The position numbers and the translations under genes were made by a program. From positions 1 through 50,527 of the forward strand of contig JAGQZA010000001.1 of the NCBI GenBank assembly GCA_020435805.1: DNA of 50,527 bases, in the 5' to 3' direction. Source of the DNA: Flavobacteriaceae bacterium (GTDB taxonomy: Bacteria > Bacteroidota > Bacteroidia > Flavobacteriales > Flavobacteriaceae). The notes below the pieces were generated by a model that was not told the origin of the DNA, made no database searches, and saw only the letters and a program-made list of their open reading frames with translations. Shown piece after piece: positions 521 through 33,826 of this stretch (positions are counted from its first letter, which is position 1; every line of letters starts with the position of its first letter).

Positions 521-544
521 GTCTCCTTGAGCGCAGTCGAAAGG
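521..544 (+). repeat. Family A REP-like palindrome, intergenic
   Basis: GTCT-CCTT-GAGCGCAGTCGA-AAGG. Confidence 0.9.
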
Positions 545-569
545 TTTTAGATAAATAAAAAAATTGATA

Positions 570-1325
570 ATGAGCAACGAACAGTTATATAATTACATTT
601 TAGGAATTGCAGACAATAATTTAATTCTTGGTCAGCGGCTGGGAGAACTTTGTGGTCACGGCCCTAATTTGGAAACCGATATTGCGTTAACCAATATAGC
701 CTTGGATTTATTTGGGCAAACAAGAAGTTATTATCAGTACGCTGCAACACTTTCTGAAAATCACAAAACCGAAGACGATGTAGCCTTTTTAAGAACCGAA
801 CGAGAATACAAAAATGCGCTTTTAGTAGAGCAACCCAATACGCATTTTGGGTATGTGATTGCCCGACAGTTTTTGTTCGATGTGTTTCATTATTTGTTTG
901 TGGAACAGCTTCAACAAAGTAAGGATGAAACACTTTCGGCTATTGCCAAAAAAGCAATAAAGGAAGTTAGCTATCATAAACGATTTTCGGGAGATTGGGT
1001 GAAACGCCTTGGCGATGGTACTTCCGAAAGTCACAAAAAAATTCAAGAAGCGGTACATGATTTATGGCCTTATACTCAGGAACTTTTTGAAATAACCAAA
1101 ACAGATACATTGGCCATAGATGAAGGTGTTGGTGTAAATCTTTCAGAATTAAAATCGAAATATCAAGAGGAAGTTGCTGAGGTTTTTAAAGAAGCAACGC
1201 TAACAATTCCGGAAAATCCCTTCTTTCAAAAAGGAGGAAAACAGGGAATTCACTCAGAACATATGGGGTATCTTCTGGCAGACCTGCAATATATGCAACG
1301 CACATATCCTAATATGAATTGGTAA
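570..1325 (+). CDS. paaC: Phenylacetyl-CoA epoxidase subunit C
   Basis: ADNNLILGQRLGELCGHGPNLETDIAL, LVEQPN, KEVSYH, GKQGIHSEHMGYLLADLQYMQRTYP; ATG at 570 preferred over TTG at 564. Confidence 0.95.
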   Translation: MSNEQLYNYILGIADNNLILGQRLGELCGHGPNLETDIALTNIALDLFGQTRSYYQYAATLSENHKTEDDVAFLRTEREYKNALLVEQPNTHFGYVIARQFLFDVFHYLFVEQLQQSKDETLSAIAKKAIKEVSYHKRFSGDWVKRLGDGTSESHKKIQEAVHDLWPYTQELFEITKTDTLAIDEGVGVNLSELKSKYQEEVAEVFKEATLTIPENPFFQKGGKQGIHSEHMGYLLADLQYMQRTYPNMNW

Positions 1326-1337
1326 ACAAATAAGAAT

Positions 1338-1364
1338 GTCACCTCGAGCGCAGTCGAGAGGTCT
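1338..1364 (+). repeat. Family A REP-like palindrome, intergenic
   Basis: GTCA-CCTC-GAGCGCAGTCGA-GAGG-TCT. Confidence 0.9.
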
Positions 1365-1370
1365 CACAAA

Positions 1371-1871
1371 ATGGTTTTAGAAAAAACACATATCGAAAAG
1401 CACTTAATCCCTATTCTGGAGGCAGTTTCCGATCCCGAAATTCCGGTGCTTTCCGTATTGGATTTGGGTGTTATTCGGGAAGCGGTTGAGGAAGAGGGGG
1501 TCGTAAAAATAAAACTAACACCAACTTATTCGGGTTGCCCTGCTATGGATGTGATTAGCGATGATTTACGGAAAGCCTTTTCAGAAATAGGGAAAAATGC
1601 GGTTGTAGAATTAATCCTTTCTCCAGCTTGGAGTACCGATTGGATAAGTGAAGCAGGACTCAAAAAAATGGAAGCGTACGGAATTGCTCGACCACTATCG
1701 GGAACTCATGATAAAGCAGTTTTACTGGGAAATGAAAAGTTAGTGAAGTGCCCTCAATGTGGAAGCAGAAATACCCATTTGGTAAGTCAGTTTGGATCTA
1801 CCGCCTGTAAAGCATTATTTCAATGTGAGGATTGCCATGAACCTTTCGACTATTTTAAATGTTTAAAATAA
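1371..1871 (+). CDS. paaD: Phenylacetyl-CoA epoxidase subunit D (Fe-S maturation)
   Basis: DPEIPVLSVLDLG, TPTYSGCPAM, CPQCGS...SQFGSTACKALFQC..C.EPFDYFKC. Confidence 0.95.
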   Translation: MVLEKTHIEKHLIPILEAVSDPEIPVLSVLDLGVIREAVEEEGVVKIKLTPTYSGCPAMDVISDDLRKAFSEIGKNAVVELILSPAWSTDWISEAGLKKMEAYGIARPLSGTHDKAVLLGNEKLVKCPQCGSRNTHLVSQFGSTACKALFQCEDCHEPFDYFKCLK

Positions 1872-1875
1872 AAAG

Positions 1876-2655
1876 ATGAAAAGTATAGAAGCCTCTATTG
1901 AGAATAATGTAGCAACACTTAAATTAAACAGACCCGAAGTCTTTAATAGCTTTAACCGTGAAATGGCGTTGCTCCTTCAAAAAGAGTTGGATGCAGCTGA
2001 ATCCAATTCCCAGGTTAGGGCGATTGTCATTACAGGTAACGGAAAAGCTTTTTGCGCAGGGCAAGATTTGAAAGAGGTAACCACACCGGAATTAAATCCC
2101 GGATTCAAAAAAATTTTGGATGAACATTATAATCCCATAATCGCTCGAATCCGCTCCATTGAAAAACCTATTATTGCTGCGGTAAATGGTGTAGCTGCTG
2201 GTGCCGGTGCTAATATTGCCTTGGCTTGCGATGTGGTCATTGCTTCAGAATATGCTAGTTTTATTCAGGCATTCAGTAAAATAGGGTTGATTCCAGATAG
2301 CGGCGGAACCTTCTTTTTACCACGACTGATTGGTTTTCAGAAAGCTTCGGCACTCATGATGTTGGGAGATAAGGTTTCGGCTAGTGATGCTGAAAAGCTG
2401 GGGATGGTATATAAAGTAATTTCTTCGGAAGAATTTGAAAATGAATTTCAAAAAATTGCCGCTACACTTTCCAAAATGCCAACCAAAGCCTTGGGAATGA
2501 CAAAACGTTTGCTTAACCAATCAATGGTAAGCAACTTAGATGAGCAATTGGATTTGGAAGGAAAGTTACAAATAGAAGCAGCACAAAGTGATGATTATGC
2601 CGAAGGGGTTACTGCCTTTGTTGAAAAAAGAACCCCTAATTTTAAAGGAAAATAA
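1876..2655 (+). CDS. paaG: 1,2-epoxyphenylacetyl-CoA isomerase (crotonase family)
   Basis: AFCAGQDL, AVNGVAAGAGANIALACD, GLIPDSGGT; operon context. Confidence 0.9.
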   Translation: MKSIEASIENNVATLKLNRPEVFNSFNREMALLLQKELDAAESNSQVRAIVITGNGKAFCAGQDLKEVTTPELNPGFKKILDEHYNPIIARIRSIEKPIIAAVNGVAAGAGANIALACDVVIASEYASFIQAFSKIGLIPDSGGTFFLPRLIGFQKASALMMLGDKVSASDAEKLGMVYKVISSEEFENEFQKIAATLSKMPTKALGMTKRLLNQSMVSNLDEQLDLEGKLQIEAAQSDDYAEGVTAFVEKRTPNFKGK

Positions 2656-2658
2656 AAT

Positions 2659-2685
2659 GTCTCCCCGAGCGTAGTCGAGGGGTCT
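2659..2685 (+). repeat. Family A REP-like palindrome, intergenic
   Basis: GTCT-CCCC-GAGCGTAGTCGA-GGGG-TCT. Confidence 0.9.
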
Positions 2686-2689
2686 GTAT

Positions 2690-3874
2690 ATGGAAAAAAT
2701 ATCAAAAATAGGAATTATAGGAGCAGGAACCATGGGAAGCGGCATTGCGCAAGTGGCTGCCACAGGCGATTGTAAGGTAAAATTATTCGATACCAATGAA
2801 TCGGCTTTGGAAAAAGCCAAAAATGCTTTAGCCAACATATTAAATAGACTCATTGAAAAAGGCAAGATTGATACTGCTGAAAAAAGCAGAATCGAAGGAA
2901 ATATATCCTATGTAAATTCTTTAAAGGAATTAGCAGATTCGCAATTGGTTATCGAGGCGATTATTGAAAATCTGGAAATAAAACAAAAGGTTTTTCAAGA
3001 ATTGGAAAGCTATGTTTCTGAAGACTGTATTATTGCAACAAACACTTCTTCATTATCGGTAGCATCCATTGCTTCATCACTTCAGAAACCGGAACGATGT
3101 ATAGGGATTCATTTTTTTAATCCGGCGCCTTTGATGCAATTGGTGGAGGTAGTACCTGCCATTCAAACTTCAGGAGCAGTATTGGAAACAGCTTCAAAAA
3201 CCATTAAAAATTGGGGAAAAACAGTTGCGATTGCCAAAGACACCCCAGGTTTTATCGTGAATAGAGTGGCACGCCCATTTTATGGGGAAGCCCTTCGAAT
3301 TTATGAAGAAGGAATCGCTTCTTTTTCTGAAATTGATACTGCTATGAAAGATATGGGAGGATTTCGTATGGGGCCTTTCGAACTCATGGATTTTATTGGG
3401 AACGATGTAAACTATACCGTTACCGAAACAGTTTTTGAAGCTTTTTATTACGATCCGCGCTACAAGCCCTCATTTACCCAAAAGCGCTACAGCGAAGCTG
3501 GTTGGTTAGGAAGAAAATCTGGGAAAGGGTATTACAATTATGATCAAAACGGAAATAGAGAAGAAATTGAGACTGTCTCGTCGAGCGCAGTCGAGACGTC
3601 TCTTTCTAAAGTTATCTTCAACCGAATTTTAGTAATGCTCATCAATGAAGCAGCCGATGCCCTGTTTTGGAACATCGCCTCCGCAGAAGATATTGATAAT
3701 GCCATGACCAAAGGAGTTAATTACCCTAAAGGCTTATTGGCCTGGGCCGATGAAAAGGGAATCGATTGGTGTGTGCAACAAATGGATAATTTGTATGAAA
3801 CCTATCGTGAGGACCGTTATCGATGTTCCCCTTTGCTTAGGAAAATGAGTGTAGAAAGTAAAACCTTCTTTTAG
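2690..3874 (+). CDS. paaH: 3-hydroxyacyl-CoA (3-hydroxyadipyl-CoA) dehydrogenase
   Basis: GAGTMGSGIA Rossmann motif, NTSSLS, GIHFFNPA, PGFIVNRVARP, MGPFELMDFIG. Confidence 0.92.
   Translation: MEKISKIGIIGAGTMGSGIAQVAATGDCKVKLFDTNESALEKAKNALANILNRLIEKGKIDTAEKSRIEGNISYVNSLKELADSQLVIEAIIENLEIKQKVFQELESYVSEDCIIATNTSSLSVASIASSLQKPERCIGIHFFNPAPLMQLVEVVPAIQTSGAVLETASKTIKNWGKTVAIAKDTPGFIVNRVARPFYGEALRIYEEGIASFSEIDTAMKDMGGFRMGPFELMDFIGNDVNYTVTETVFEAFYYDPRYKPSFTQKRYSEAGWLGRKSGKGYYNYDQNGNREEIETVSSSAVETSLSKVIFNRILVMLINEAADALFWNIASAEDIDNAMTKGVNYPKGLLAWADEKGIDWCVQQMDNLYETYREDRYRCSPLLRKMSVESKTFF
3575..3601 (+). repeat. Family A palindrome in-frame within paaH
   Basis: GTCT-CGTC-GAGCGCAGTCGA-GACG-TCT, translated as VSSSAVETS. 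Confidence 0.9.
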
Positions 3875-4282
3875 ATGAAAGGAGAACAAATTCCACATAA
3901 AATGTTATCACAAGATGCCTTTAGCCAATGGCTGGGCATTGAAATTTTAGAATGTGAAGTTGGACGATGCAAAGTGGCAATGACGGTTCGCAAAGATATG
4001 CTGAATAGTATGTATAAAGCACACGGCGGAATTAGTTATTCTCTGGCAGATACAGCTTTCGGATTTGCGGCTAATACCCACGGAAGGTACGCTGTGTCAA
4101 TCGAAACGTCCATTAATCATATTGAAGCGTTGGAAGAAGGTGATATTTTGGTAGCCGAAAGTGTGATTGAAAAAGTAAATAATAAACTGGGTTTTAACGT
4201 AATTGAAGTAAAAAGAGGCGACGAGTTAGTGGCACTTTTTAAGGGTGTTGTATATCGAACTCAAAAAGAATGGACAGAATAG
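3875..4282 (+). CDS. paaI: PaaI-family hotdog thioesterase
   Basis: DAFSQWLGI, HGGISYSLADTAFGFAAN. Confidence 0.9.
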   Translation: MKGEQIPHKMLSQDAFSQWLGIEILECEVGRCKVAMTVRKDMLNSMYKAHGGISYSLADTAFGFAANTHGRYAVSIETSINHIEALEEGDILVAESVIEKVNNKLGFNVIEVKRGDELVALFKGVVYRTQKEWTE

Positions 4283-4290
4283 AAAAATAA

Positions 4291-4320
4291 TTCCCCCTTT
4301 GAAGGGGGTTAGGGGGATGT
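4291..4320 (+). repeat. Family B palindromic repeat, intergenic
   Basis: TTCCCCCTTTGAAGGGGGTTAGGGGGATGT. Confidence 0.88.
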
Positions 4321-4345
4321 TTTCCCTATTTGAAATAGTATATAA

Positions 4346-5557: not shown

Positions 5558-5561
5558 TCAA

Positions 5562-5587
5562 GTCACCTTGAGCGCAGTCGAGAGGTC
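5562..5587 (+). repeat. Family A REP-like palindrome, intergenic
   Basis: GTCA-CCTT-GAGCGCAGTCGA-GAGG-TC. Confidence 0.9.
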
Positions 5588-5594
5588 GTAATAG

Positions 5595-8096: not shown

Positions 8097-8099
8097 CTC

Positions 8100-8859: not shown

Positions 8860-8890
8860 TTCCCCCTTTGAAGGGGGGTAGGGGGATGTT
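8860..8890 (+). repeat. Family B palindromic repeat, intergenic
   Basis: TTCCCCCTTTGAAGGGGGGTAGGGGGATGTT. Confidence 0.88.
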
Positions 8891-8894
8891 AATA

Positions 8895-9491
8895 ATGATC
8901 TATTCTTTCAAAGGACATATTCCTGTAATTCACGAATCCAGTTTTGTGCATCCGCTAGCTGCTGTTACGGGTAATGTAATTATTGGGAAAAACTGTTATA
9001 TAGGTCCTGGTGCCGCGATCCGAGGGGATTGGGGAGAGATTATTTTGGAAGACGGGGTCAATGTCCAGGAAAGTTGTACCATACATATGTTTCCGGGGAA
9101 AAGCATTGTCTTAAAAGAAAGTGCTCATGTGGGGCACGGTGCTGTTATTCACGGTGCTAATTTGGGCCGAAATTGTTTAATTGGGATGAACAGTGTTATT
9201 ATGGATGATGCCGTCATAGGCGATGAATGTATTGTGGGTGCTATGAGTTTTGTAAAAGCCGAAACTGTATTTGAAGCCAGGCAATTGATTGTGGGAAATC
9301 CTGCAAAAGCCATTAAAGAGGTTACTGAAGAAATGATCGCTTGGAAAACGGCAGGAACAAAATTATACCAGCAATTGCCCAAAGACTGCTTTGAAACCTT
9401 AAAGGAAGTGGAGCCCTTACGTGAAATTCCGAAGGAAAGGCCCAAACAAGAGGATTTTTATAAAACATTGCAAGAAATTAAAAGAAACTAA
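8895..9491 (+). CDS. paaY: PaaY-like hexapeptide-repeat (gamma-carbonic anhydrase family) protein
   Basis: IYSFKG..PV..SSFVHPLA, IRGDWG, HVGHGAVIHG, WKTAGTKLYQQL. Start moved to ATG 8895; the ORF-track extension lies in the repeat. Confidence 0.88.
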   Translation: MIYSFKGHIPVIHESSFVHPLAAVTGNVIIGKNCYIGPGAAIRGDWGEIILEDGVNVQESCTIHMFPGKSIVLKESAHVGHGAVIHGANLGRNCLIGMNSVIMDDAVIGDECIVGAMSFVKAETVFEARQLIVGNPAKAIKEVTEEMIAWKTAGTKLYQQLPKDCFETLKEVEPLREIPKERPKQEDFYKTLQEIKRN

Positions 9492-10762
9492 TGCCGAAAG
9501 TAGAATTCAAAATGCCGCGCTTAGGCGAAAGTATCACCGAAGCTGCCATTATTAAATGGTGGAAAAGTGAAGGTGACACCATTGAAATAGATGAAATTTT
9601 GCTGGAAGTAGCGACCGATAAAGTAGATAGTGAAGTGCCTAGTAACATTTCCGGTACAGTCGTGGAACTTTTGTACCAAGCCAATGATGTTATACAAATT
9701 GGGGCGCCCATTGCCATTATTGATAGTAATGGTAAACCTTTAGAAAAGAAAAAAGCTGTCCCGTCGAGCGCAGTCGAGACGTCTCAAAAAGCTTTAAAAA
9801 CAACTAAAACCTCTCCCCTCCCTCTGGGAGGGGCTGGGGGTGGGATATTTATTTCACCCTTAGTGGAAAGTATTGCGAAGCAACATCATATAAGCTATGA
9901 AGAACTAGCCCGAATCCCGGCATCCGGAAATGACGGAAGACTTCGGAAGAGCGATGTAATGCAGTATATTGCAGAAGGACGACCCTTCAAATTTGCACAA
10001 CCTATTCCTGATAACAGCGGATTTAAAGTTCCCAATTTACAATTTGATAAAGGCAAAGGGAAATTGGTGGAAATGGACCGTATGCGCCAAATGATTGCAG
10101 ATCATATGGTGTTCAGTAAACATACCTCGCCTCATGTAACTGCTTATGTGGAAGCTGACCTTACAGAAATGGTTAGCTGGAGAAATAAGGTAAAGTCTAA
10201 TTTTCAGAAAAAATACAACGAAAAATTGACATTTACCCCACTGTTTATTGAATGCATTGCTAAAGCAATAAAAGAATATCCTATGATTAATTCTTCGTTA
10301 GATGGTAAAAACATCATTGTAAAAGATGATATCAACATAGGGATGGCAACAGCATTGCCTTCGGGAAACTTAATTGTTCCTGTGGTTCGGAATGCCGATA
10401 AAAAAACGCTGCAGGAATTAGCCGCCATTACCAATGAACTTGCTACTAAGGCCCGAGAAGGGAAATTAACCGCCGATGAAACCAAAGGCTCTACTTTTAC
10501 CATAAGTAATGTGGGGACTTTTGGTAGCTTGATGGGAACCCCCATAATTAATCAGCCGGAAGCGGCCATTTTAGCTACGGGAATTATAAAAAAGCGTGCA
10601 GAAGTGATGGAGAGAGAAAGTGGAGATTCCATTGAAATTAGAAGTATGATGTACCTATCCCTTTCCTTCGATCACCGAATTGTAGATGGGTATTTAGCCG
10701 GTTCTTTTTTACGAAGAATAGCCGATGAAATGGAACAGTTTGATGTGAATAGAGAACTATGA
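9491..10762 (+). CDS. 2-oxoacid dehydrogenase E2 (dihydrolipoamide acyltransferase)
   Basis: Lipoyl motif EVATDKVDSEVPS, peripheral subunit-binding domain (SPLV..IA...GSG.DGRL), catalytic DHRIVDG. Confidence 0.93.
   Translation: MPKVEFKMPRLGESITEAAIIKWWKSEGDTIEIDEILLEVATDKVDSEVPSNISGTVVELLYQANDVIQIGAPIAIIDSNGKPLEKKKAVPSSAVETSQKALKTTKTSPLPLGGAGGGIFISPLVESIAKQHHISYEELARIPASGNDGRLRKSDVMQYIAEGRPFKFAQPIPDNSGFKVPNLQFDKGKGKLVEMDRMRQMIADHMVFSKHTSPHVTAYVEADLTEMVSWRNKVKSNFQKKYNEKLTFTPLFIECIAKAIKEYPMINSSLDGKNIIVKDDINIGMATALPSGNLIVPVVRNADKKTLQELAAITNELATKAREGKLTADETKGSTFTISNVGTFGSLMGTPIINQPEAAILATGIIKKRAEVMERESGDSIEIRSMMYLSLSFDHRIVDGYLAGSFLRRIADEMEQFDVNREL
9758..9784 (+). repeat. Family A palindrome in-frame in the E2 linker
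   Basis: GTCC-CGTC-GAGCGCAGTCGA-GACG-TCT, translated as VPSSAVETS. Confidence 0.9.
9813..9844 (+). repeat. Family B-like palindrome in-frame in the E2 linker
   Basis: CTCCCCTCCC-TCT-GGGAGGGG-CT-GGGGGTGGG, translated as SPLPLGGAGGG; same pyrimidine-stem/purine-stem/G-run layout as family B. Confidence 0.75.
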
Positions 10763-12867
10763 TAAAGGAGAATAAATCAAGTTTGAAAGCTACAAGATTA
10801 GATAGAGAGATATTGGTAAAAGCCTTCGCCAATCTATGCACTGCTAAGGCGATGACCTTTTTATACGAAGAGAATTTTAAAGTGGTTTCCAAATATGTGC
10901 ATGCCACTTCCAGGGGTCATGAGGTTATTCAAACCGCAGTGGGACTGCAATTGAAGCCTCAGGATTATGCTTTTCCTTATTATCGTGACGATTCCATGCT
11001 TTTGGCTATTGGGATGCAACCGTATGATTTGATGCTTCAAGTGTTGGCCAAGCGAGACGATCCTTTTTCGGGTGGGAGAACCTATTATTCGCACCCCAGT
11101 TTAAAAGATGAAGACAAGCCTAAAATTCCGCATCAAAGCTCGGCCACCGGAATGCAAGCTATCCCTGCTACCGGAGTCGCTATGGGGTTTTGGTACAAAG
11201 AAGCAGAAGGTATTGATGATGTCACCCTGAGCGCAGTCGAAGGGTCATTAGAAAGGCCAATAGTAGTTTGTAGTTTAGGGGACGCTTCCGTTACCGAAGG
11301 CGAAATAGCCGAAGCCTTTCAAATGGCTGCTTTAAAACAGCTTCCTGTTTTATATCTGGTGCAAGATAACGGTTGGGATATTTCAGCGAATGCTGAAGAA
11401 ACCCGCGCCCAAAATGCTTTTGAATACGCCAAAGGATTCCATGGGTTGGAAGCCGTTACTATCGATGGAACCAATTTTGAAGAAAGTTATCAAACTATTC
11501 AGAATATCATTGAAATTATTCGAAAAGAGCGCCGTCCTTTTTTGGTACATGCGAAAGTTCCTTTGTTAAACCACCATACCTCAGGAGTGCGCATGGAATG
11601 GTATCGAGATGATTTGGAAGAAGCTCGTATGCGAGATCCGTACCCAAAAATGCAAAAATTGTTGGAAGACTACGGATTTACCAAAAAGGAAATTCAGCAA
11701 ATAGAAAACGATTGTATTGACAAGGTGCGAGCCGATTTAGAAAAAGCCTTACAAGCCGAAGATCCCAAACCGGAGGATTTGTTTACTCATGATTTTGCGC
11801 CCACACCTGTTTTAGAAGAAGTAGGGGAGCGTTCCCCAAAAGATGCCGAGAGGGTTGTGATGGTCGATTGTGCCCTTTTTGCCATAGAGGAACTTATGGC
11901 AAAACACAAAGAATGTTTGCTGTACGGACAGGATGTAGGAGGAAGGCTGGGAGGTGTTTTTCGGGAGGCTGCTACATTGGCGCAGAAATTTGGCGATAAT
12001 CGAGTGTTTAATACTCCCATTCAGGAAGCCTTTATTGTGGGTTCTACCGTGGGGATGAGTGCCGTGGGGTTAAAACCCATTGTTGAGGTGCAATTTGCCG
12101 ATTATATTTGGCCGGGTCTTAATCAATTATTTACCGAAGTTTCCCGAAGCTGTTACCTTTCAAACGGAAAATGGCCTGTTTCTATGATTTTACGAGTACC
12201 AATTGGGGCGTATGGGAGTGGAGGGCCCTATCATTCTTCTTCCGTAGAAAGTATTGTCACCAATATCCGTGGTTTAAAAATTGCCTATCCCAGTAATGGA
12301 GCCGATTTAAAAGGATTGCTAAAAGCTGCCTATTATGATCCCAATCCTGTAGTAATATTTGAACATAAAGGGCTATACTGGAGTAAAGTGCCAGGGACCA
12401 AAGGAGCTACCAGTTTAGAACCTGCCGAGGATTATATACTTCCTTTTGGGAAAGCTTGGGTGCTACAGGAAATTTGGAAGCAGGAAGAGGAAGAGACCCT
12501 CTCTATTATTACCTACGGAATGGGTGTGCATTGGGCGATGAATGCTTCTGAAGAACTTGAAATGCAAGATCGTATTGAAATTGTAGATTTACGAACCTTA
12601 CATCCCATAGATTGGGAAACGATTTATACCAGTGCAAAAAAATGTGGGAAGTGTTTAATTGTTACCGAAGAACCTTCCGATAATGGTTTTGCCAGAAGTA
12701 TTCAAGCAAAAATACAAGAAGCGTGTTTTGAGCAGTTAGATGCCCCGGTAATGCTTATTGGTTCCGAAAATATGCCAGCCATTCCGTTAAATAGTGTTTT
12801 AGAGCAAACCATGATTCCTTCCGTGGAAAAAGTAAAAGTAAAAATTCTTGAGATATTGAATTATTAA
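10759..12867 (+). CDS. 2-oxoacid dehydrogenase E1, fused alpha/beta subunits (branched-chain type)
   Basis: ThDP motif GDASVTEG...QDN, HHTSG, GQDVGG..GGVFR, NTPIQE, EVQFADYI, GGPYHS. Confidence 0.93.
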   Translation: MIKENKSSLKATRLDREILVKAFANLCTAKAMTFLYEENFKVVSKYVHATSRGHEVIQTAVGLQLKPQDYAFPYYRDDSMLLAIGMQPYDLMLQVLAKRDDPFSGGRTYYSHPSLKDEDKPKIPHQSSATGMQAIPATGVAMGFWYKEAEGIDDVTLSAVEGSLERPIVVCSLGDASVTEGEIAEAFQMAALKQLPVLYLVQDNGWDISANAEETRAQNAFEYAKGFHGLEAVTIDGTNFEESYQTIQNIIEIIRKERRPFLVHAKVPLLNHHTSGVRMEWYRDDLEEARMRDPYPKMQKLLEDYGFTKKEIQQIENDCIDKVRADLEKALQAEDPKPEDLFTHDFAPTPVLEEVGERSPKDAERVVMVDCALFAIEELMAKHKECLLYGQDVGGRLGGVFREAATLAQKFGDNRVFNTPIQEAFIVGSTVGMSAVGLKPIVEVQFADYIWPGLNQLFTEVSRSCYLSNGKWPVSMILRVPIGAYGSGGPYHSSSVESIVTNIRGLKIAYPSNGADLKGLLKAAYYDPNPVVIFEHKGLYWSKVPGTKGATSLEPAEDYILPFGKAWVLQEIWKQEEEETLSIITYGMGVHWAMNASEELEMQDRIEIVDLRTLHPIDWETIYTSAKKCGKCLIVTEEPSDNGFARSIQAKIQEACFEQLDAPVMLIGSENMPAIPLNSVLEQTMIPSVEKVKVKILEILNY
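11221..11246 (+). repeat. Family A palindrome in-frame within E1
   Basis: GTCA-CCCT-GAGCGCAGTCGA-AGGG-TC, translated as VTLSAVEGS. Confidence 0.9.
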
Positions 12868-14624: not shown

Positions 14625-14951
14625 ATGTACCAATACAAAGCAAAAATTATTGATGTGTATGATGGGGATACCGTTACCGCTGTAGTGGACTTGGGGTTTC
14701 TTCATTTTCAAGAAATGAAATTACGACTTTACGGAATTAATACTCCGGAATTAAAAGGAGAAGATAGGGATCGCGGTCTTGTGGTAAGAGATATTTTACG
14801 AAATCTTATTTTAGACAAGGAAGTAATGATTCATTCCTATAAAGATAAACAAGGTAAATACGGGCGTTACTTAGCCACTATTTTCCTCGATGGACTTAAT
14901 ATTAACAACTGGTTAGTAGATGAAGGCCATGCGGTTGTTTATATGCCATAA
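14625..14951 (+). CDS. Thermonuclease (SNase-like) protein without signal peptide
   Basis: VYDGDT, RLYGINTPE, GKYGRYLA, INNWLVDEGHA motifs. Confidence 0.85.
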   Translation: MYQYKAKIIDVYDGDTVTAVVDLGFLHFQEMKLRLYGINTPELKGEDRDRGLVVRDILRNLILDKEVMIHSYKDKQGKYGRYLATIFLDGLNINNWLVDEGHAVVYMP

Positions 14952-16911: not shown

Positions 16912-18921
16912 TTATTGAAACAATTTTTCATCAACCAAATTAGGAAGCGTCACTTTTAGTAATGGCTCTTGTTGCATTGCTCTTTTAATGGCAAAGATAG
17001 CTTCATCATTTCGAGCCCAACTTCGCCGTGCGATTCCGTTGTTTACATCCCAAAAAAGCATCGATTCCAGACGGGATTGCGCTTCTTTACTACCATCAAG
17101 AACCATACCGAATCCGCCATTCATCACTTCTCCCCAGCCAACACCACCGCCATTATGGATACTCACCCAGGTTGCCCCACGAAAACTGTCTCCTATTACA
17201 TTATGAATCGCCATGTCTGCTGTAAAACGGCTACCATCGTAAATATTTGAAGTTTCCCTGTAAGGAGAATCTGTTCCAGAAACATCGTGGTGATCTCTTC
17301 CTAAAATAACCAAACCTATTTTACCTTCAGAAATAGCTTTATTGAATGCTGAAGCTATTTCTACTCTCCCGTTACTGTCTGCATATAAAATACGAGCTTG
17401 TGACCCCACGACCAATTTATTTTCCTGTGCCCCTTTTATCCACTGAATATTATCCTGCATTTGTTGCTGAATTTCAGTAGGGGATTCCTTCATTAACCGT
17501 TCTAAAACTTGTGTTGCTATTTCATCGGTTTTTGCTAAATCTTCTGGTTTTCCTGAAGCGCATACCCATCGGAAAGGGCCAAACCCATAATCGAAACACA
17601 TGGGGCCCATAATGTCTTGTACATAGCTTGGGTATTTAAATTCTCGTTGAGGTTTCGACTGCGCTCGACCAGACAAGTCTTTTTCAGCTAAAATATCAGC
17701 ACCCGCCCGAGACGCTTCCAGTAAAAATGCATTTCCATAATCGAAAAAATAGGTGCCTTTTGCCGTATGTTTATTGATAGCAGTAGCATGGCGGCGTAAG
17801 CTTTCCTGGACTTTTTCCTTAAAGAGGGTAGGATTATTGGCCATTAGTTTGTTGGCTTCTTCATAACTCATTCCTGCAGGATAATAGCCCCCTGCCCAAG
17901 GGTTGTGAAGTGAAGTTTGGTCGCTCCCTAAATCTATTTGGATGTTTTCTTTGTCGAAATACTCCCAAACTTCAACTACATTGCCATCATATGCAATAGA
18001 AACAGTTTCTTTATTTGCAACAGCTTTTTTTACACGGGATGCTAATTCAGGTAATTCTGAAATTACCTCATCTACCCATCCTTGACTGTGGCGTGTGTGA
18101 GTTGCTTTTTGGTTTACTTCGGCACAAACAGTAACACAACCGGCAATATTTCCGGCTTTGGGTTGTGCCCCACTCATCCCGCCTAAACCGGACGTAACAA
18201 ATAATCCGCCTTTAGGCTTCTTTTTTATTTTTCTGAAACCATTTAAAACGGTAATAGTAGTGCCATGAACAATGCCTTGAGGGCCAATGTACATATAACT
18301 ACCGGCGGTCATTTGGCCGTACTGAGTAACTCCTAAAGCGTTAAATTTCTCCCAATCGTCGGGTTGTGAATAGTTAGGAATCATCATTCCATTGGTAACA
18401 ACTACGCGCGGGGCATTTTTATGTGAAGGAAATAGCCCAAGGGGGTGGCCAGAATACATAACGAGTGTTTGCTCGTCGGTCATTTCAGAAAGGTATTTCA
18501 TGACCAAACGGTATTGAGCCCAATTCTGAAATACGGCACCATTGCCACCATAGGTGATTAGTTCGTGCGGGTGTTGTGCCACGGCATGGTCCAAATTATT
18601 TTGAATCATTAGCATAATAGCCTTGGCTTGTTCAGATTTTCCAGGGTATTCCGAAATAGAACGCGCAAAAATTTTATGATCCGGCATGAAACGGTACATG
18701 TAAATCCTTCCGTAGGTTTCCAACTCTTCTTTAAATTCGGGTAGAAGCGTGGCGTGGTGTTTGGGTTCAAAGTATCGTAATGCATTTTGAAGGGCTAATT
18801 TTTTTTCCGCATCGTTTAAAATTTCTTTCCTTTTGGGTGCGTGATTTATGGATGGATCGTATGCTTTAGCAGTGGGTAAGGTATCTGGAATTCCTTGTAG
18901 TATTTCTTCTTGGAAGGTCAT
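16912..18921 (-). CDS. hutU: Urocanate hydratase (long form)
   Basis: NNLD..VAQHPHELITYGGNG, GQMTAGSYMYIGPQGIVHGT, GLGGMSGAQP, GRDHHD, HNGGGVGWG. Confidence 0.97.
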   Translation of the reverse strand: MTFQEEILQGIPDTLPTAKAYDPSINHAPKRKEILNDAEKKLALQNALRYFEPKHHATLLPEFKEELETYGRIYMYRFMPDHKIFARSISEYPGKSEQAKAIMLMIQNNLDHAVAQHPHELITYGGNGAVFQNWAQYRLVMKYLSEMTDEQTLVMYSGHPLGLFPSHKNAPRVVVTNGMMIPNYSQPDDWEKFNALGVTQYGQMTAGSYMYIGPQGIVHGTTITVLNGFRKIKKKPKGGLFVTSGLGGMSGAQPKAGNIAGCVTVCAEVNQKATHTRHSQGWVDEVISELPELASRVKKAVANKETVSIAYDGNVVEVWEYFDKENIQIDLGSDQTSLHNPWAGGYYPAGMSYEEANKLMANNPTLFKEKVQESLRRHATAINKHTAKGTYFFDYGNAFLLEASRAGADILAEKDLSGRAQSKPQREFKYPSYVQDIMGPMCFDYGFGPFRWVCASGKPEDLAKTDEIATQVLERLMKESPTEIQQQMQDNIQWIKGAQENKLVVGSQARILYADSNGRVEIASAFNKAISEGKIGLVILGRDHHDVSGTDSPYRETSNIYDGSRFTADMAIHNVIGDSFRGATWVSIHNGGGVGWGEVMNGGFGMVLDGSKEAQSRLESMLFWDVNNGIARRSWARNDEAIFAIKRAMQQEPLLKVTLPNLVDEKLFQ
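17651..17674 (-). repeat. Family A palindrome in-frame within hutU
   Basis: Minus strand GTCT-GGTC-GAGCGCAGTCGA-AACC, translated as LSGRAQSKP (a different frame from the other coding copies). Confidence 0.88.
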
Positions 18922-28093: not shown

Positions 28094-28120
28094 ATAATAT
28101 CATTTTAGTAAGATTACTCT

Positions 28121-28173
28121 TACAATATTATAATAAAATATCGATAAAATACATATTAAATCGATTAAAGACA
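28121..28173 (-). promoter_or_regulatory. Promoter with -7-like box and 20-bp-period direct repeats
   Basis: Plus strand TACAATATTA at 28121, TCGATAAAATACA at 28141, TCGATTAAAGACA at 28161. Confidence 0.6.
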
Positions 28174-28364
28174 CAATAATTTAACATTTAAGCAAATTTT
28201 ATGTTAAATATTTCTTTAGTAGCATTATTAAAAAATTTGAGGATATTTTAATTTCGAAGTGTTATCCAGAAAAAAATTGAATTATTTTTTGAGTTTTAAC
28301 ATATAAACCTTCAATTTTACAATAATGAAAAAGATTTACTTTTTATAATTTTCTGAAAATCAAA

Positions 28365-29285: not shown

Positions 29286-30129
29286 TTACATGGGAGCAAG
29301 AATTTTTACTTTTTTAATCATCGGATTATTGCTGGTTGGGTGTAAATCTAAAAAAGCAGCAGTATCTAAAAAATCCAGAACAAAGACCGAGAAGGTAGTT
29401 GTTATTTCCCCAAAAGATCCTATTGAAGTAATTCTCCCAAATAAAACGGATGAGTCAAAAATTGATGAGCTTCCCAAGAATGCTTCCTATGAAGAAATTT
29501 TAAATGCTTACGTTGATACTTACAGTGAGATTGCCAAAGAAGAAATGCTTCAGTACGGTATTCCTGCCAGTATTACCTTAGCTCAGGGAATTTTAGAGAG
29601 TGGAGCAGGACGAGGGGAACTTACACAAAAGGCTAATAATCACTTCGGAATTAAATGTCACACTAATTGGACGGGAGAAAAAGTATACCATGACGATGAT
29701 GAAAAAGGAGAATGTTTCCGAAAGTATAAAGACGCCAAGTATTCTTTTAGAGATCACTCTTTATTTCTTACCCAGAGAAGCCGTTATCAAGAGTTGTTTA
29801 AACTGAAAAAAGACGATTATAAAGCTTGGGCAAAAGGACTAAAAAAAGCAGGATATGCTACCGACCCAAAATACCCGGATAAGCTCATTGGCATTATTGA
29901 AAAAAATAAATTATATCGGTATGATGATGAGGTTTTGGGTGGAAAAGCAAGAATTATAAATAACGATGATTCAAAAATTAATACCTATACAGTAGAAAAA
30001 GGAGATACTTTATATAGTATTGCTCGTCGTTTTAGTATGACTGTTGAAACGTTAATGGAGTATAATGGATTACTTTCAAGCGATATTGCCGTAGGCCAAG
30101 TCTTATATTTGCATTCGGTAAAAGATTAA
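29278..30129 (+). CDS. GH73 glucosaminidase with LysM domain, lipoprotein
   Basis: Lipobox LVGC, IPASITLAQGILES, NNHFGIKC, GYATDPKY, C-terminal YTVEKGDTLYSIA. Start may be 29290. Confidence 0.9.
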   Translation: MNNYMGARIFTFLIIGLLLVGCKSKKAAVSKKSRTKTEKVVVISPKDPIEVILPNKTDESKIDELPKNASYEEILNAYVDTYSEIAKEEMLQYGIPASITLAQGILESGAGRGELTQKANNHFGIKCHTNWTGEKVYHDDDEKGECFRKYKDAKYSFRDHSLFLTQRSRYQELFKLKKDDYKAWAKGLKKAGYATDPKYPDKLIGIIEKNKLYRYDDEVLGGKARIINNDDSKINTYTVEKGDTLYSIARRFSMTVETLMEYNGLLSSDIAVGQVLYLHSVKD

Positions 30130-30162
30130 GAAAGCATTCGATTTTTTGGCATAACACTAATA

Positions 30163-30190
30163 AAAAAAGCTCCCGAGAGGGAGCTTTTTT
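30163..30190. terminator. Bidirectional intrinsic terminator
   Basis: AAAAAAGCTCCC-GAGA-GGGAGCTTTTTT between convergent genes. Confidence 0.9.
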
Positions 30191-30204
30191 AAAGAAATTT
30201 ATTG

Positions 30205-30552
30205 TTAATTTTCAAGTGTTTTCCACTTTTTATACTGTTCTTCCGTAAGGGCTTTTTTCATAGAAGTATCAAAAACTTCATCGTGTTTTTTCTTGTTAGT
30301 CATAACATCTGCACTCTTTGTGTCTTTTCCATTAACATCTTTTGCATAATTGTTTTCTTTTACAACCAACGCACGAAAAACCGCTCTTTGCTGGTCTCCA
30401 TTTAAACCAAGAGTTGTACTCAGTTTTTCAGTTTGTTTTTTGGCAACAACTTCGGGAGTGTTTTGATCCTGCTTTAACGATTGAGCATTCATAGTACCCA
30501 TTCCTAAGAGCAATACAAAAGAAAAAGCAACAATTTTAATTAAATTCTTCAT
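30205..30552 (-). CDS. Small periplasmic helical protein (Spy/CpxP LTxxQ-like)
   Basis: Signal peptide, LGLNGDQ, LTEEQYKKW. Confidence 0.7.
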   Translation of the reverse strand: MKNLIKIVAFSFVLLLGMGTMNAQSLKQDQNTPEVVAKKQTEKLSTTLGLNGDQQRAVFRALVVKENNYAKDVNGKDTKSADVMTNKKKHDEVFDTSMKKALTEEQYKKWKTLEN

Positions 30553-30625
30553 GGTTTTTAAGTTTTAAAGTTACTAATGTAACTATTTTCAACATAACTA
30601 ACCAAAAACTAAGCCAAAAAAGAAA

Positions 30626-31063
30626 TTACTCTTCCTTCTGTTTCCCGGGATGTTTTTTCATTCGACCTTTATGGTGTTGCGCTTTTTCAAATTTTGCATA
30701 TTGTTCTTCATTTAAAATATTTTTCATTTCCTTTTTGAACGCAATTTGCTCATCCAGCATTTTTGATTTTAAAGCAAACTTTTCTTCTTTTGTAAGTTCT
30801 TCCCCTTCTTTTCTTTTTTCACGAAGGGCCTCTCTTTTTTCTTCTTGCTGTAATAAAAGTATTTCCACTTGCTTTTGTTGTTTTTCATTTAGATCAAGAT
30901 GCAAGGTCATTTCCTTCGCCTTCAATGTAGCGCGTTCTTGAGGGGTAAGGTTGTCCATTTTTTCTTTCATCTCTTTTCGGTATTTCATTTTTGCATCAGG
31001 ACCCGGCTGTGCTTGAAGTGCTAAGCCCATAAATACGAAACAGATAAACAATAATTTTTTCAT
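30626..31063 (-). CDS. Periplasmic Spy/CpxP-like protein
   Basis: Signal peptide, LTPQER, LDLNEKQQ, ILNEEQYAKF; charged helical composition. Confidence 0.72.
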   Translation of the reverse strand: MKKLLFICFVFMGLALQAQPGPDAKMKYRKEMKEKMDNLTPQERATLKAKEMTLHLDLNEKQQKQVEILLLQQEEKREALREKRKEGEELTKEEKFALKSKMLDEQIAFKKEMKNILNEEQYAKFEKAQHHKGRMKKHPGKQKEE

Positions 31064-31093
31064 ACTATAAAATTTTAAGATTAATGTGGTTAT

Positions 31094-31120
31094 GACTTCA
31101 AAATGGATGCTTAGTTTAAC
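31094..31120 (-). promoter_or_regulatory. Putative ECF sigma-type promoter
   Basis: Minus strand GTTAAAC-N17-GTC upstream of the Spy-like genes. Confidence 0.4.
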
Positions 31121-31246
31121 AAAGCCTGTATTAAAATTTTGTTAAACGGTTATTTTCCCTCATTCAAGATCGGTATTCACTCATTTGGGGTTTTACAATA
31201 CATTTTTGAAAACTACTTTCGGAAAGAATTTTTAAAACACGTAAAG

Positions 31247-32548
31247 ATGAAAACTAAATTAATTTTTTTAGCACTTCCCATTTTTGTAATGGGTTTTTGG
31301 CTTTCTGTAAACAACTCAAATTCTAAGTACGCTGAAACAAAAAGAATGTTAAAGCATACCGATGGCTGTGTATTTATGACTGTTATGGGAGAACAATCTT
31401 CCAAAGACTTTGATGTATTTATGACGAATGAAAACCTTTCATTAAGTGTTCGGGATGGCTTGGCTTGGCTAAGTGATGCGCAACTGTCTTCAGGAGGCTA
31501 TGGAGCGGGGAGTCATAGTGCACAAAACATTATGGATCCCCATGCAGTAAAAGCAGACCCGGCCACTACAGCCATGGTAGCACAAGCTTTTTTGCGAAGC
31601 GGGGTAACCCTGCAAGGGGATAAATATTCTCAAAACTTAAAAAAAGCGATTAATTTTTTACTAGAAACGGTTGAAAATACCCCAAAAACAGCCGAATACA
31701 TTACAGAGGTACGAGGAACTCAAATTCAGACCAAATTAGGGCAGAATATTGACGCTGTTCTTACAGCGCAATTACTGTCTAATCTTTTAGATAGAGATTT
31801 ACAAGGAATTGACAAAAAGCGAGTAGCACGATGTTTGGATATTTGTGTTGCCAAAATTGAAGCGGGTACCGATGCCTCCGGAAGACAAACCGGTGCCGGT
31901 TGGGCGGGTGTCTTACAGAGTGGTTTGGCCTATAGTGCCTTGGAATCTGCAGAGGCTGTTGGTGCAACCGTAGATAAAAAAGTATTGGAGCGTTCCAAAA
32001 ACTACCAAAAGGGGAATTATGATTCGGAGAGTGGGAACATTAAAACCGAAGATGGTGCAGGTGTCATGCTGTATGCTGTAAGTAATAGTGTGCGTGCCAG
32101 CGCTAAAGAAGCCAGAGAAGTTGAGGAGGCTGTCAACAAAGCTAAAAAAGAAGGGAAATTAGAAAAAAATGCGTCAGTTTCTGTAGAAAACTTACGTAAA
32201 ATTGGCTATGCCGAAAATGAAGCAATGGAGTATACCACCTCATACAATGTGTATCAATCCGGAAAGGATGCCGCTCAACGTGATGATGTTTTAAATGGTT
32301 TTGGTAATAATGGCGGAGAGGAGTTTTTGAGCTTTTTACAAACCGGAGAATCGTTGGCGGTAAACCAAGATAAGGATTGGAAAAAGTGGTATAACGACAT
32401 GAGCGGGCGCATTTTAAAAATACAAAATGAAGATGGTAGTTGGAATGGCCATCATTGTATTACCAGCCCTGTGTTTTGTACTGCGACTAGTTTGTTGTTG
32501 TTAACGGTAGAAAATGATATTGCCTTTTTAAGTAAAGTGGGCAAGTAA
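31247..32548 (+). CDS. Prenyltransferase/squalene-cyclase-repeat (alpha/alpha barrel) protein with N-terminal signal/anchor
   Basis: QW-like repeats GLAWLSDAQLSSGGYG, KAINFLL, ILKIQNEDGSW. ATG 31247 gives a signal-like N-terminus. Confidence 0.7.
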   Translation: MKTKLIFLALPIFVMGFWLSVNNSNSKYAETKRMLKHTDGCVFMTVMGEQSSKDFDVFMTNENLSLSVRDGLAWLSDAQLSSGGYGAGSHSAQNIMDPHAVKADPATTAMVAQAFLRSGVTLQGDKYSQNLKKAINFLLETVENTPKTAEYITEVRGTQIQTKLGQNIDAVLTAQLLSNLLDRDLQGIDKKRVARCLDICVAKIEAGTDASGRQTGAGWAGVLQSGLAYSALESAEAVGATVDKKVLERSKNYQKGNYDSESGNIKTEDGAGVMLYAVSNSVRASAKEAREVEEAVNKAKKEGKLEKNASVSVENLRKIGYAENEAMEYTTSYNVYQSGKDAAQRDDVLNGFGNNGGEEFLSFLQTGESLAVNQDKDWKKWYNDMSGRILKIQNEDGSWNGHHCITSPVFCTATSLLLLTVENDIAFLSKVGK

Positions 32549-32579
32549 CCCCGTTTTTATAAACTGCGATACACATCGT

Positions 32580-32610
32580 TTTGCAGGGTGGTACCTTCCC
32601 TGTATCTTTA
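32580..32610 (+). promoter_or_regulatory. Bacteroidota housekeeping-type promoter with no downstream ORF
   Basis: TTTG (32580-83) - 19 nt - TATCTTTA (32603-10); consensus is TTTG-N19-21-TAnnTTTG. Confidence 0.5.
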
Positions 32611-32613
32611 AGG

Positions 32614-32711
32614 TGCAAATAGTTTAGGTTGGTTTAAGCACCACCCAGAATGCTGGTAGGGATACCGGCCCCCCATTGCCAATACGGGAGGATTTCTGGG
32701 TGGTGTTTTTT
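32614..32711 (+). ncRNA. Candidate ~100-nt structured small RNA / branched terminator
   Basis: 15-bp stem 32636-50/32694-708 enclosing two hairpins, followed by a T-run and preceded by a promoter-like sequence. Confidence 0.45.
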
Positions 32712-32713
32712 AT

Positions 32714-33721
32714 TTACAATAAATTATACCTTGGGACTTTTCGAGTTAGGGTTAAATTTATTAGTTTTTTTCTCATTAGTACGTTATCATCAAAAATTCT
32801 GGAGATGTTATAAATATTATTAAAATAGTTTTGTTCTCCACCGTGATATCTATATTCAATCTTTTTGATATTTGGGTGTTGAAAAATAGTTTTTAATAAA
32901 GTCTTATCTGTAAGTCCACAAGAGTGTCCTATAATTTCAATATTTATGTTTTTTTCAACTTCAAGAAGTGATAAAAGTCTATGATAATTACTTGTTTGTA
33001 AGTATTGAAAGGTTTTAAAATTCTTCAAAAGGTAATCTTTTTCTAAATTTTGAATTTTATTGTATTCTTCGGAATTATCATCACCATAGCCAAATATTAT
33101 GGGATTTAAGCTATTATTCAAATCGCCGTGAATATTAATAAGTTGAAAATTTTCATGGTAAAAATTAGATTTATATTTTGCGAATTGTAAATGATAAGCA
33201 ACAGTTTTTTTTGTATAGTTAAAATTTATGATACCTAAAATTTTTTCATCAATTTCAGTATTTTCGAAAATACAATCTCTAAAATCTCTATTAAAATCGG
33301 GTAGCGGGTTCTCTACTTTTTCTTTTAAGTACTTTTGAAGTAAATTCTTTAAATGATCAAACTCTCTATTTAAAATATCTATATTTTCGGGCAGACTTAG
33401 ATTTTTTCTTAATAATCTATAATATAAAGACTCAAGGTCAATCCATTTTTCATATTTATTGTAATGATTAAAAAGTTCTTTAAAAAATATTGAGGAATGT
33501 TTAGGACAACTGGTAAACTCATATTCAGTATTTCCTAATTGTCTTGGCTTTTGCTTAAAAGCAATAAAATTTGAATTTGGATAATGCTTAACTCCGCAGT
33601 TCCCTTCTTTAATTCCAATAGGATTAGCATCTTCTATTATAAATTCCATCAAATCTTTATATGATGTTTTTAGCCCGTGGGCAAGGTCAAAACCATTGCC
33701 AATTATTATAATTTTATTCAT
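32714..33721 (-). CDS. AbiH-family (SIR2-like fold) putative anti-phage protein
   Basis: IIIGNGFDLAHGLKTSY, INFNYT, NIHG, IFGYGD, IGHSCG..D; visibly AT-richer than flanking genes. Confidence 0.85.
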   Translation of the reverse strand: MNKIIIIGNGFDLAHGLKTSYKDLMEFIIEDANPIGIKEGNCGVKHYPNSNFIAFKQKPRQLGNTEYEFTSCPKHSSIFFKELFNHYNKYEKWIDLESLYYRLLRKNLSLPENIDILNREFDHLKNLLQKYLKEKVENPLPDFNRDFRDCIFENTEIDEKILGIINFNYTKKTVAYHLQFAKYKSNFYHENFQLINIHGDLNNSLNPIIFGYGDDNSEEYNKIQNLEKDYLLKNFKTFQYLQTSNYHRLLSLLEVEKNINIEIIGHSCGLTDKTLLKTIFQHPNIKKIEYRYHGGEQNYFNNIYNISRIFDDNVLMRKKLINLTLTRKVPRYNLL

Positions 33722-33765
33722 TGATTTTTTAAAATTTATGAGGAGAAAATGTCTTTTAAAGATAT

Positions 33766-33789
33766 AAAAAAAGACCCAAAAGGGTCTTT
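33766..33789 (-). terminator. lysS intrinsic terminator
   Basis: AAAGACCC-AAAA-GGGTCTTT with an A-run (U-tract on the minus strand). Confidence 0.8.
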
Positions 33790-33799
33790 ATAATATTAT

Positions 33800-33826
33800 G
33801 AGATTTCTCACTTTGTTCGAAATGAC
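33800..33826 (-). repeat. Family A variant palindrome just after the lysS stop
   Basis: Minus strand GTCA-TTTC-GAACAAAGTGA-GAAA-TCTC: same GTCA head, 4-bp stem, GA/GA and TCT tail, with an 11-nt core. Confidence 0.7.

What the first reader, a model, noticed from the sequence alone, without database searches (positions are those of the whole stretch)
521..33826. Covarying 24-bp REP-like hairpin family, always in sense orientation, with a DNA-type GNA triloop
Seen: eight copies of GTCH-NNNN-GAGCG(C/T)AGTCGA-N'N'N'N' at 521, 1338, 2659, 3575, 5562, 9758, 11221 and 17674(-), plus a variant at 33826(-). The 4-nt arms differ between copies yet stay complementary (CCTT/AAGG, CCTC/GAGG, CCCC/GGGG, CGTC/GACG twice, CCCT/AGGG, TTTC/GAAA); one copy has a G.T pair and one a mismatch. 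The core is nearly invariant, and its single change (GCA to GTA) keeps a C-GNA-G loop. All copies are co-oriented with the host gene, and seven are in the paa operon. Known: C-GNA-G triloops and tandem GA pairs are stable ssDNA motifs, and REPs with a tetranucleotide head are substrates of HUH (RAYT/TnpA-REP) enzymes. Inference: this is a structure-selected non-autonomous element spread by an enzyme encoded elsewhere.
Basis: partly seen in the sequence, partly recalled or inferred. Interest (0 to 1): 0.8.

Follow-up and report, generated by a model that had tools for sequence, protein, structure and literature searches.

The report
Flavobacterial hairpin repeats with nuclease partner
A 24-base DNA hairpin repeat is scattered through this bacterium, even inside working genes, and also brackets a tiny nuclease gene that likely cuts beside it in single-stranded DNA and may help it spread, much like the Ssn nuclease-repeat pairs described in 2025 but with a different repeat.

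Summary
The eight copies are real (chance 0.02). The genome holds 65; 61 have four complementary arm pairs (shuffled mean 10.8). 'Always sense' fails: 32 of 65 are head-out inverted pairs. Solitary copies do favour the sense strand (24 of 27 here; 20 of 26 in a closed relative). Four window copies lie in frame inside genes. The partner is not a RAYT: no Y1 transposase was found in this 79%-complete genome. Instead two copies bracket a 116-aa GIY-YIG gene on contig C80. In 80 relatives, 70 have a copy upstream and 65 on both sides, in at least 15 neighbourhoods. Orthologous sites in relatives are empty, filled, or hold other hairpin types, and 24-nt repeats nest in the loop. This is a TGTC-headed REP of the CGTC kind (2013), paired with an Ssn-like nuclease (2025). 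It misses the published SRM pattern (0 of 65), and the protein falls on a separate, UPF0213-like branch (not statistically settled). Cleavage and enzyme-driven spread are inferred, not shown. This scan reported the same kind on other genomes. Verdict: new variant of a known kind; interest 0.38.

The parts
521..544 (+). repeat copy between paaB and paaC (arms CCTT/AAGG)
   Evidence: present in 2 of 10 aligned relatives, 5 same-genus genomes have no spacer at all
1338..1361 (+). repeat copy between paaC and paaD (CCTC/GAGG)
   Evidence: three same-genus genomes hold a different (CCCC...GGGG) palindrome here
2659..2682 (+). repeat copy between paaG and paaH (CCCC/GGGG, GTA loop)
   Evidence: spanned without change by a contig of run X2
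3575..3598 (+). repeat copy in frame in the inter-domain linker of PaaH (2690-3874), read as VSSSAVET
   Evidence: of 14 relatives 3 hold this family, 7 other GTC-type hairpins (some decayed), 4 none
5562..5585 (+). repeat copy between the thiolase gene and paaZ (CCTT/GAGG, one G.T)
   Evidence: the G002 orthologue carries a nested 24-nt repeat in its loop
9758..9781 (+). repeat copy in frame in the linker of the 2-oxoacid dehydrogenase E2 gene (9491-10762), read as VPSSAVET
   Evidence: nested 24-nt insert in G002
11221..11244 (+). repeat copy in frame in the E1 gene (10759-12867), read as VTLSAVEG; net +24 nt
   Evidence: absent from 11 of 11 aligned relatives; +24 nt against five same-genus genomes
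17651..17674 (-). repeat copy in frame in hutU (16912-18921); one arm mismatch; net +21 nt
   Evidence: absent from 6 of 6 same-genus genomes
33801..33826 (-). sister-type GTCA-headed hairpin just after the lysS stop codon; not a member of the GAGCGNAGTCGA family
   Evidence: similar type at orthologous sites of other genomes

Best explanation
The repeat is a TGTC-headed REP hairpin that brackets a small single-domain GIY-YIG nuclease gene elsewhere in this genome and is likely that enzyme's recognition site in single-stranded DNA, with cut-and-repair at such sites predicted to help copy the repeat around the genome. Shown: the repeat-gene-repeat unit (G000:C80:160-540, protein P0001), gene-less head-out pairs with 9-29-bp spacers, solitary copies, gain/loss at orthologous sites, intact active-site residues. 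Inferred by analogy with SsnA: the enzyme reads the TGTC head plus the base of the stem (4-bp arm, then GAG...CGA, probably tandem sheared G.A pairs), tolerates different loops, and nicks the strand a few bases 5' of the head. Inferred and weakest: GIY-YIG enzymes hydrolyse and do not join DNA (textbook knowledge), so new copies would arise when host repair resolves nicks in exposed single strands (non-template strand during transcription, hairpin loops, fork DNA). This would give imprecise, duplication-free insertions and swaps of one hairpin type for another; copies survive in intergenic spacers and flexible protein linkers.
For: Two copies face inward around a Pfam GIY-YIG gene in the same genome. 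Of the best 80 of 357 related loci, 70 have a head-out copy within 150 bp upstream, 75 downstream, 65 both. 69 full-length loci fall in 17 upstream and 15 downstream neighbourhood clusters. In 300 family genomes the pattern occurs in 166 (reversed-pattern control 0): 59 of 61 genomes with a close nuclease relative (E<=1e-30) versus 108 of 239 others by my transcription (the tool's tally implies 107). Y7, Y17, R27, H31 and E65 are kept in 79-80 of 80 proteins; SsnA needs Y6, Y17, E64 (PMC11893778; matching by position is my inference). Other small GIY-YIG branches are flanked by their own hairpin types. Empty, filled and swapped sites. Seven 24-nt nested inserts in 5 genomes. Sense bias of solitary copies: 24 of 27 (16 of 19 outside the window, p=0.004) and 20 of 26 in closed genome G189 (p=0.009). 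15 of 15 short pairs join two different arm types, 7 of them GGTC/CCTC, a pairing common around the gene.
Against: No binding, cleavage or movement was measured. 39 of 239 genomes without a close relative of the nuclease still have 10 or more copies; in 10 such genomes none of the 30 GIY-YIG loci fetched is bracketed by the repeat. No presence/absence difference in contigs of 7 public runs holding this organism. Some copies are shared across the genus or beyond (C99:5369, C20:7086, window 9758), so many are old. The tail of P0001 is itself encoded by the downstream repeat, which biases the ranking of the 80 loci; only the upstream count is free of this. Kin genomes are not independent. In 80 of 134 viral-contig loci only 37 of 71 matches had four arm pairs and there was no sense bias (23 sense, 29 antisense; crude ORF calls). 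Sense bias and leading-strand bias are not fully separated (8 of 12 sense on lagging-strand genes, p=0.39). The nested inserts were found with a pattern that fixes their position.
Confidence: 0.68

Rival explanations
1. The nuclease recognises the repeat, but only restricts or trims incoming or exposed ssDNA, as SsnA does in Neisseria; the repeats and the gene unit are moved by something else (IS transposases, recombination, slippage).
For: This is the only in vivo role shown for an Ssn enzyme (PMC11893778, results and discussion read). Repeat-rich genomes exist without a close nuclease relative. Tandem slippage-like arrays flank some genes. GIY-YIG enzymes have no known joining activity (recalled).
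Against: No transposase is consistently beside the repeats in the loci examined for Y1; each nuclease branch keeps its own repeat at both ends in many neighbourhoods, which looks like a selfish unit.
Confidence: 0.2
2. The repeat works as an RNA element (mRNA stabiliser or processing site) selected in sense orientation; the link to the nuclease gene is secondary.
For: Sense bias of solitary copies, including intergenic ones (13 of 15 and 14 of 16); occasional G.T pairs; four copies in consecutive spacers of one operon; an RNA-library contig spans the 11221 copy (does not prove transcription).
Against: Half the copies are inverted pairs; sites are empty or hold unrelated hairpins in relatives; in-frame copies in linkers; SsnA does not bind RNA (PMC11893778); G.T pairs are rare (2 of 260 arm cells).
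Confidence: 0.07
3. The repeat is the substrate of an HUH (RAYT/TnpA-REP) enzyme acting in trans.
For: Tagged head plus hairpin and head-out dimers resemble GTAG REPs; the genome is only 79% complete.
Against: No Y1_Tnp in G000 or in 6 of 12 repeat-rich genomes, including closed G189 with 126 copies; 0 of 30 Y1 loci bracketed; PMC3733652 found CGTC repeats not associated with tyrosine transposases.
Confidence: 0.05

Closest known systems
Ssn nucleases (SsnA, CDD cd10448) with NTS/SRM hairpins; Chenal et al. 2025, PMC11893778 (read: abstract, introduction, results, discussion, part of methods, Supplementary Data 5, a word search of 13 of 14 supplements)
   Same: Small single-domain GIY-YIG gene bracketed by GTC-headed hairpin repeats that are also dispersed; same catalytic Tyr, Tyr, Glu positions; the authors already suggest a domesticated mobile element.
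   Different: 0 of 65 copies match the published SRM pattern. The repeat has a 4-bp arm plus a GAG...CGA internal loop instead of a perfect stem. The protein groups apart from NTS-flanked proteins (SH-aLRT 88 vs 89; AU test does not reject grouping, p=0.28), and its best solved relatives are UPF0213 proteins. About a fifth of copies are intragenic (14 of 65 by my ORF calls) versus 2% for NTS.
CGTC-tagged REPs; Di Nocera et al. 2013, PMC3733652 (read: passages, genome-distribution, transposase and discussion parts, parts 1 and 3 of supplement S3; Figure 2 with the consensus sequences not held)
   Same: TGTC head variant, head-out (HH) dimers that are mostly heterodimers, solitary and in-frame intragenic units, no transposase link; the flavobacterium G. 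forsetii is among their CGTC-positive species.
   Different: Their four families have 8-9-bp stems opening with A-T and 4-5-nt loops; here the first position pairs A-T in only 17 of 65 and the canonical stem is 4 bp. They name no partner enzyme. I could not see whether their G. forsetii consensus is this repeat.
RAYT/REP (REPtron) systems and REPIN-like doublets (as described in PMC3733652; REPIN term recalled)
   Same: Enzyme gene bracketed by tagged hairpins, with gene-less inverted doublets spread in the genome.
   Different: The enzyme is a GIY-YIG hydrolase, not an HUH tyrosine transposase; the head is TGTC, not GTAG.
UPF0213 / YhbQ / YazA small GIY-YIG proteins (PDB 1zg2, 1ywl; E. coli YhbQ)
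   Same: Best sequence and fold matches in PDB (E 9e-10; rank 1).
   Different: E. coli YhbQ has no such repeat beside it and scores no better than NTS-flanked proteins (45 vs 37-50 bits).
Rickettsia palindromic elements RPE-4/RPE-6 (as cited in PMC3733652)
   Same: CGTC-type repeats translated in frame inside housekeeping genes.
   Different: Different sequence and host; here the same linker holds different hairpin types in different genomes.

Membership tests
Ssn / SRM system | Single-domain GIY-YIG protein of about 100 aa with catalytic Tyr, Tyr, Glu | tested here: met
   116 aa, PF01541 only; Y7, Y17, R27, H31, E65 conserved in 79-80 of 80
Ssn / SRM system | Gene flanked on both sides by GTC-headed hairpin repeats that are also dispersed | tested here: met
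   (65 of 80)
Ssn / SRM system | Repeat matches the published SRM search pattern | tested here: not met
   0 of 65 copies; one SRM match in the whole genome, elsewhere
Ssn / SRM system | Protein lies in the cd10448 clade | tested here: inconclusive
   Separate branch from five NTS-flanked proteins in two quick trees; AU test p=0.28 does not reject a joint clade; SsnA itself and CDD profiles were not available
Ssn / SRM system | Site-specific binding and cleavage of ssDNA, not dsDNA or RNA | not testable with these tools
   needs purified protein
CGTC REPs | Unpaired CGTC/TGTC head | tested here: met
   T at the first place in 57 of 65, GTC in 63 of 65 (GTC was part of the pattern)
CGTC REPs | HH dimers predominant among pairs, often heterodimers; intragenic units | tested here: met
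   16 of 16 pairs head-out, 15 of 15 short pairs heterodimers; 29 head-out vs 4 head-in in G189
CGTC REPs | 8-9-bp stem opening with A-T, 4-5-nt loop (families 1-4) | tested here: not met
   4-bp canonical arm; first pair A-T in 17 of 65
CGTC REPs | Identity with the G. forsetii consensus of Figure 2 | not testable with these tools
   figure not held
RAYT/REP (REPtron) | HUH/Y1 transposase gene bracketed by the repeat | tested here: not met
GCGNAGC DNA mini-hairpin | Two G-C pairs closing a GNA loop | tested here: not met
   apex is GCGNAGTC; N free (264 C, 68 G, 27 A, 27 T), but a T interrupts the second pair; requirement from PMC13037366 passages

The most novel reading that the evidence does not exclude
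Repeat-specific small GIY-YIG nucleases are the missing mobilisers of CGTC/TGTC REPs: without any transposase they nick transcription-exposed or looped single strands, and host repair writes a 24-nt hairpin into the gap, repeatedly inserting, nesting and swapping 7-8-codon peptides in the same protein linkers. The branch here would be a second family beside Ssn that reads a G.A-mismatch stem.
Probability: 0.3. Interest if true: 0.75.

Novelty: new variant of a known kind. Interest (0 to 1): 0.38.

Why it matters
The 2013 survey left open how CGTC repeats arise, and the 2025 Ssn paper characterised four enzymes from Neisseria and Wolbachia. This window gives a different repeat-nuclease pair, found in over half of 300 sampled genomes of its family, with defined empty and filled sites, so both cleavage and spread can be tested directly. 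If it cuts as predicted it adds a new ssDNA specificity to the Ssn toolbox. If it also spreads the repeat, it is a transposase-free route of repeat mobility that edits protein linkers. Interest is limited because the pairing principle is published and this scan has reported the same kind on other genomes.

Tried and rejected
RAYT partner: rejected. Rfam: no family over its cut-off at the four small GIY-YIG loci except tRNAs. NCBIfam names no family for P0001. Nearest-neighbour DNA folding gives no significant stability; such models handle sheared G.A pairs poorly (recalled). Target-site duplication: none above shuffles at 3-5 nt in 33 solitary copies; 2 of 33 at 6 nt (p=0.035, not pursued). 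A precise 24-nt unit inserted at T^T fits the E1 site only; hutU is +21 and other sites have rewritten flanks, so boundaries are unresolved. Replichore bias: 23 of 37 on the leading strand in G189, p=0.19; GC skew on the fragmented own genome was too weak to use. The all-plus run was a listing cut, corrected. Strain-level gain or loss: none in 7 runs, contigs only. The careful tree did not finish; quick trees were used (25 of the core proteins sampled, then a 42-row subset). The single-sequence model is mediocre (pLDDT 66). C265:20639 orthologues did not align (N run). Literature searches listed no paper on this repeat or on UPF0213-like proteins with repeats; I saw listings only, subscription journals are not covered, and Figure 2 and supplements S1, S2, S5, S6 of PMC3733652 were not seen.
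Full report
Observation. The pattern finds exactly eight copies in the window at the stated places; chance gives 0.02. Their four arm pairs covary. The window is contig C111 of a 2.38-Mb, 79%-complete genome. It is probably Flavobacteriaceae, since the named relatives of its genes are, and runs that hold it are wastewater and activated-sludge metagenomes. Five copies lie among paaB-paaZ, two in the E2 and E1 genes that follow, one in hutU. Four are inside reading frames. The 33826 'variant' has another core and is a sister hairpin type.

Genome census. With one mismatch allowed there are 65 copies. 61 have four Watson-Crick arm pairs against 10.8 in shuffles; ten arm sequences are used. A T precedes 57 and follows 63. 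32 copies form 16 head-out pairs: 15 with 9-29-bp spacers, all joining two different arm types, and one around a gene. So the family is not always sense. After removing three copies with decayed partners, 24 of 27 orientable solitary copies are sense (16 of 19 outside the window, p=0.004; my own ORF calls). In closed genome G189 (126 exact matches; 53 without a partner within 500 bp; 16 of these had a decayed partner) 20 of 26 orientable ones are sense (p=0.009), and 23 of 37 lie on the leading strand (p=0.19). Against this, a mixed set of viral-contig matches showed no bias (23 sense, 29 antisense; only 37 of 71 had full arms).

Structure. The short apex is CGNAGT in 386 of 420 distinct copies from all loci then held, with all four N. 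This fits a GNA loop, but the canonical GCGNAGC mini-hairpin needs two G-C pairs (PMC13037366, passages) and here a T intervenes; folding programs see nothing special. Sister repeats keep the GTC head, the 4-bp arm and GAG...CGA while the top grows to 20-60 nt. The conserved part is therefore the head and stem base. That agrees with SsnA, for which the loop is dispensable and bases next to the stem matter (PMC11893778).

Partner. The genome has no Y1_Tnp match but six GIY-YIG matches. One, P0001 (116 aa, C80:197-544), lies between copies at C80:160 (+) and 540 (-); the downstream copy encodes its last residues. Of the best 80 of 357 related loci, 70 have a head-out copy upstream, 75 downstream and 65 both; only the upstream count is free of query bias. 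69 full-length loci fall into 17 and 15 neighbourhood clusters. In 300 family genomes the repeat occurs in 166: in 59 of 61 with a close relative of P0001 and about 108 of 239 without (kin are not independent). 39 of the 239 have ten or more copies, and in ten of them none of 30 GIY-YIG loci was bracketed, so repeats outlast or do not need the gene. Six of 12 repeat-rich genomes lack Y1 transposases and 0 of 30 Y1 loci are bracketed. Y7, Y17, R27, H31 and E65 are kept in 79-80 of 80 proteins.

Placement. No copy matches the SRM pattern. In quick trees the proteins flanked by GAG...CGA hairpins form one branch (support 88) apart from five NTS-flanked proteins and their flavobacterial kin (89); an AU test does not reject joining P0001's group to them (p=0.28). 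PDB sequence and fold searches rank UPF0213 proteins first. Other small GIY-YIG branches have their own flanking hairpins. So it works like Ssn/NTS, but membership in Ssn as defined is not met for the repeat and open for the protein.

Mobility. Among 14 relatives fetched for the paa region (each site aligned for those whose flanks passed): the 521 site is filled in 2 of 10 and has no spacer in five; the E1 copy is missing in 11 of 11 (+24 nt); the PaaH linker holds this family in 3 of 14, other GTC-type hairpins in 7, none in 4; the 1338 site holds an unrelated palindrome in three. hutU lacks it in 6 of 6 (+21 nt); at C242:8329 three relatives hold another hairpin type on the opposite strand. 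A 24-nt short-armed repeat sits inside the loop of a host copy in seven cases from five genomes, two of them orthologues of window copies 5562 and 9758; the search pattern fixed that position. Against recent activity: several copies are shared across the genus, no gain or loss shows in contigs of seven runs, and no target duplication was found.

Mechanism. Shown: anatomy, association, site turnover, intact active site. Likely (about 0.8): P0001 binds and nicks repeat-bearing ssDNA, as four Ssn enzymes do. Less sure (about 0.45): this drives spread through host repair at exposed single strands, which would account for sense bias, loop nesting, swaps and ragged boundaries. The main rival is an SsnA-like restriction role with movement by other means.

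Known versus new. TGTC heads, head-out heterodimers and in-frame units are in the 2013 CGTC survey, which lists the flavobacterium G. forsetii; its consensus figure was not available, so this repeat may already be there. The nuclease-hairpin pairing is in the 2025 paper. My searches (listings only) showed no description of this repeat or branch. Earlier notes of this scan report the same kind on other genomes; my reading was recorded before I saw them and they are not counted as support. Verdict: real, a new variant of a known kind, interest 0.38.

Noticed in passing
window 149-175, 4291-4320, 8860-8890 and about 9805-9840 (in frame in the E2 gene, SPLPLGGAGGG): A second palindrome family (CCCCTTTGAAGGGG...GGGGATG) in the same operon. 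Related copies flank both DUF559 nuclease-family genes of this genome (C189 on both sides, C202 upstream), and relatives hold it at sites where this genome has the GAGCG repeat. C189 looks GC-richer than the genome.
   Followed up: partly
L001 (G000:C235:8078-8395) and relatives L447, L461, L480, L486: A second small GIY-YIG branch with long-topped versions of the same hairpin (GTC-arm-GAGTG...TATCGA-arm), sometimes in large arrays.
   Followed up: partly
L003 (G000:C73:4595-4795), L005 (G000:C252:8071-8271), L470, L496: A third kind of small GIY-YIG gene sits directly upstream of tRNA genes, with tRNA-like fragments before it; tandem arrays of such genes in G233, G217 and G003.
   Followed up: no
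L058, L059, L060 (paa regions of G012, G010, G023): Whole hairpin-GIY-YIG-hairpin units of the Ssn-like branch are inserted in the paa operon of relatives; the one in L058 is followed by a repeat of the start of the paaY-like gene. The operon seems a hot spot for such elements.
   Followed up: no
window 32714-33721 (-): AbiH-family abortive-infection gene (PF14253, E 5e-24) directly downstream of lysS and the sister hairpin at 33826.
   Followed up: no
G000:C222:18770(-), C306:1519, C243:41505 and 40083, C53:4303-5722; L601: Composite hairpins: CCTG-headed copies of the same core, and copies nested inside long-topped hairpins.
   Followed up: partly
window 14625-14951 (+): Small SNase-like (thermonuclease family) gene between two secreted-protein genes.
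   Followed up: no
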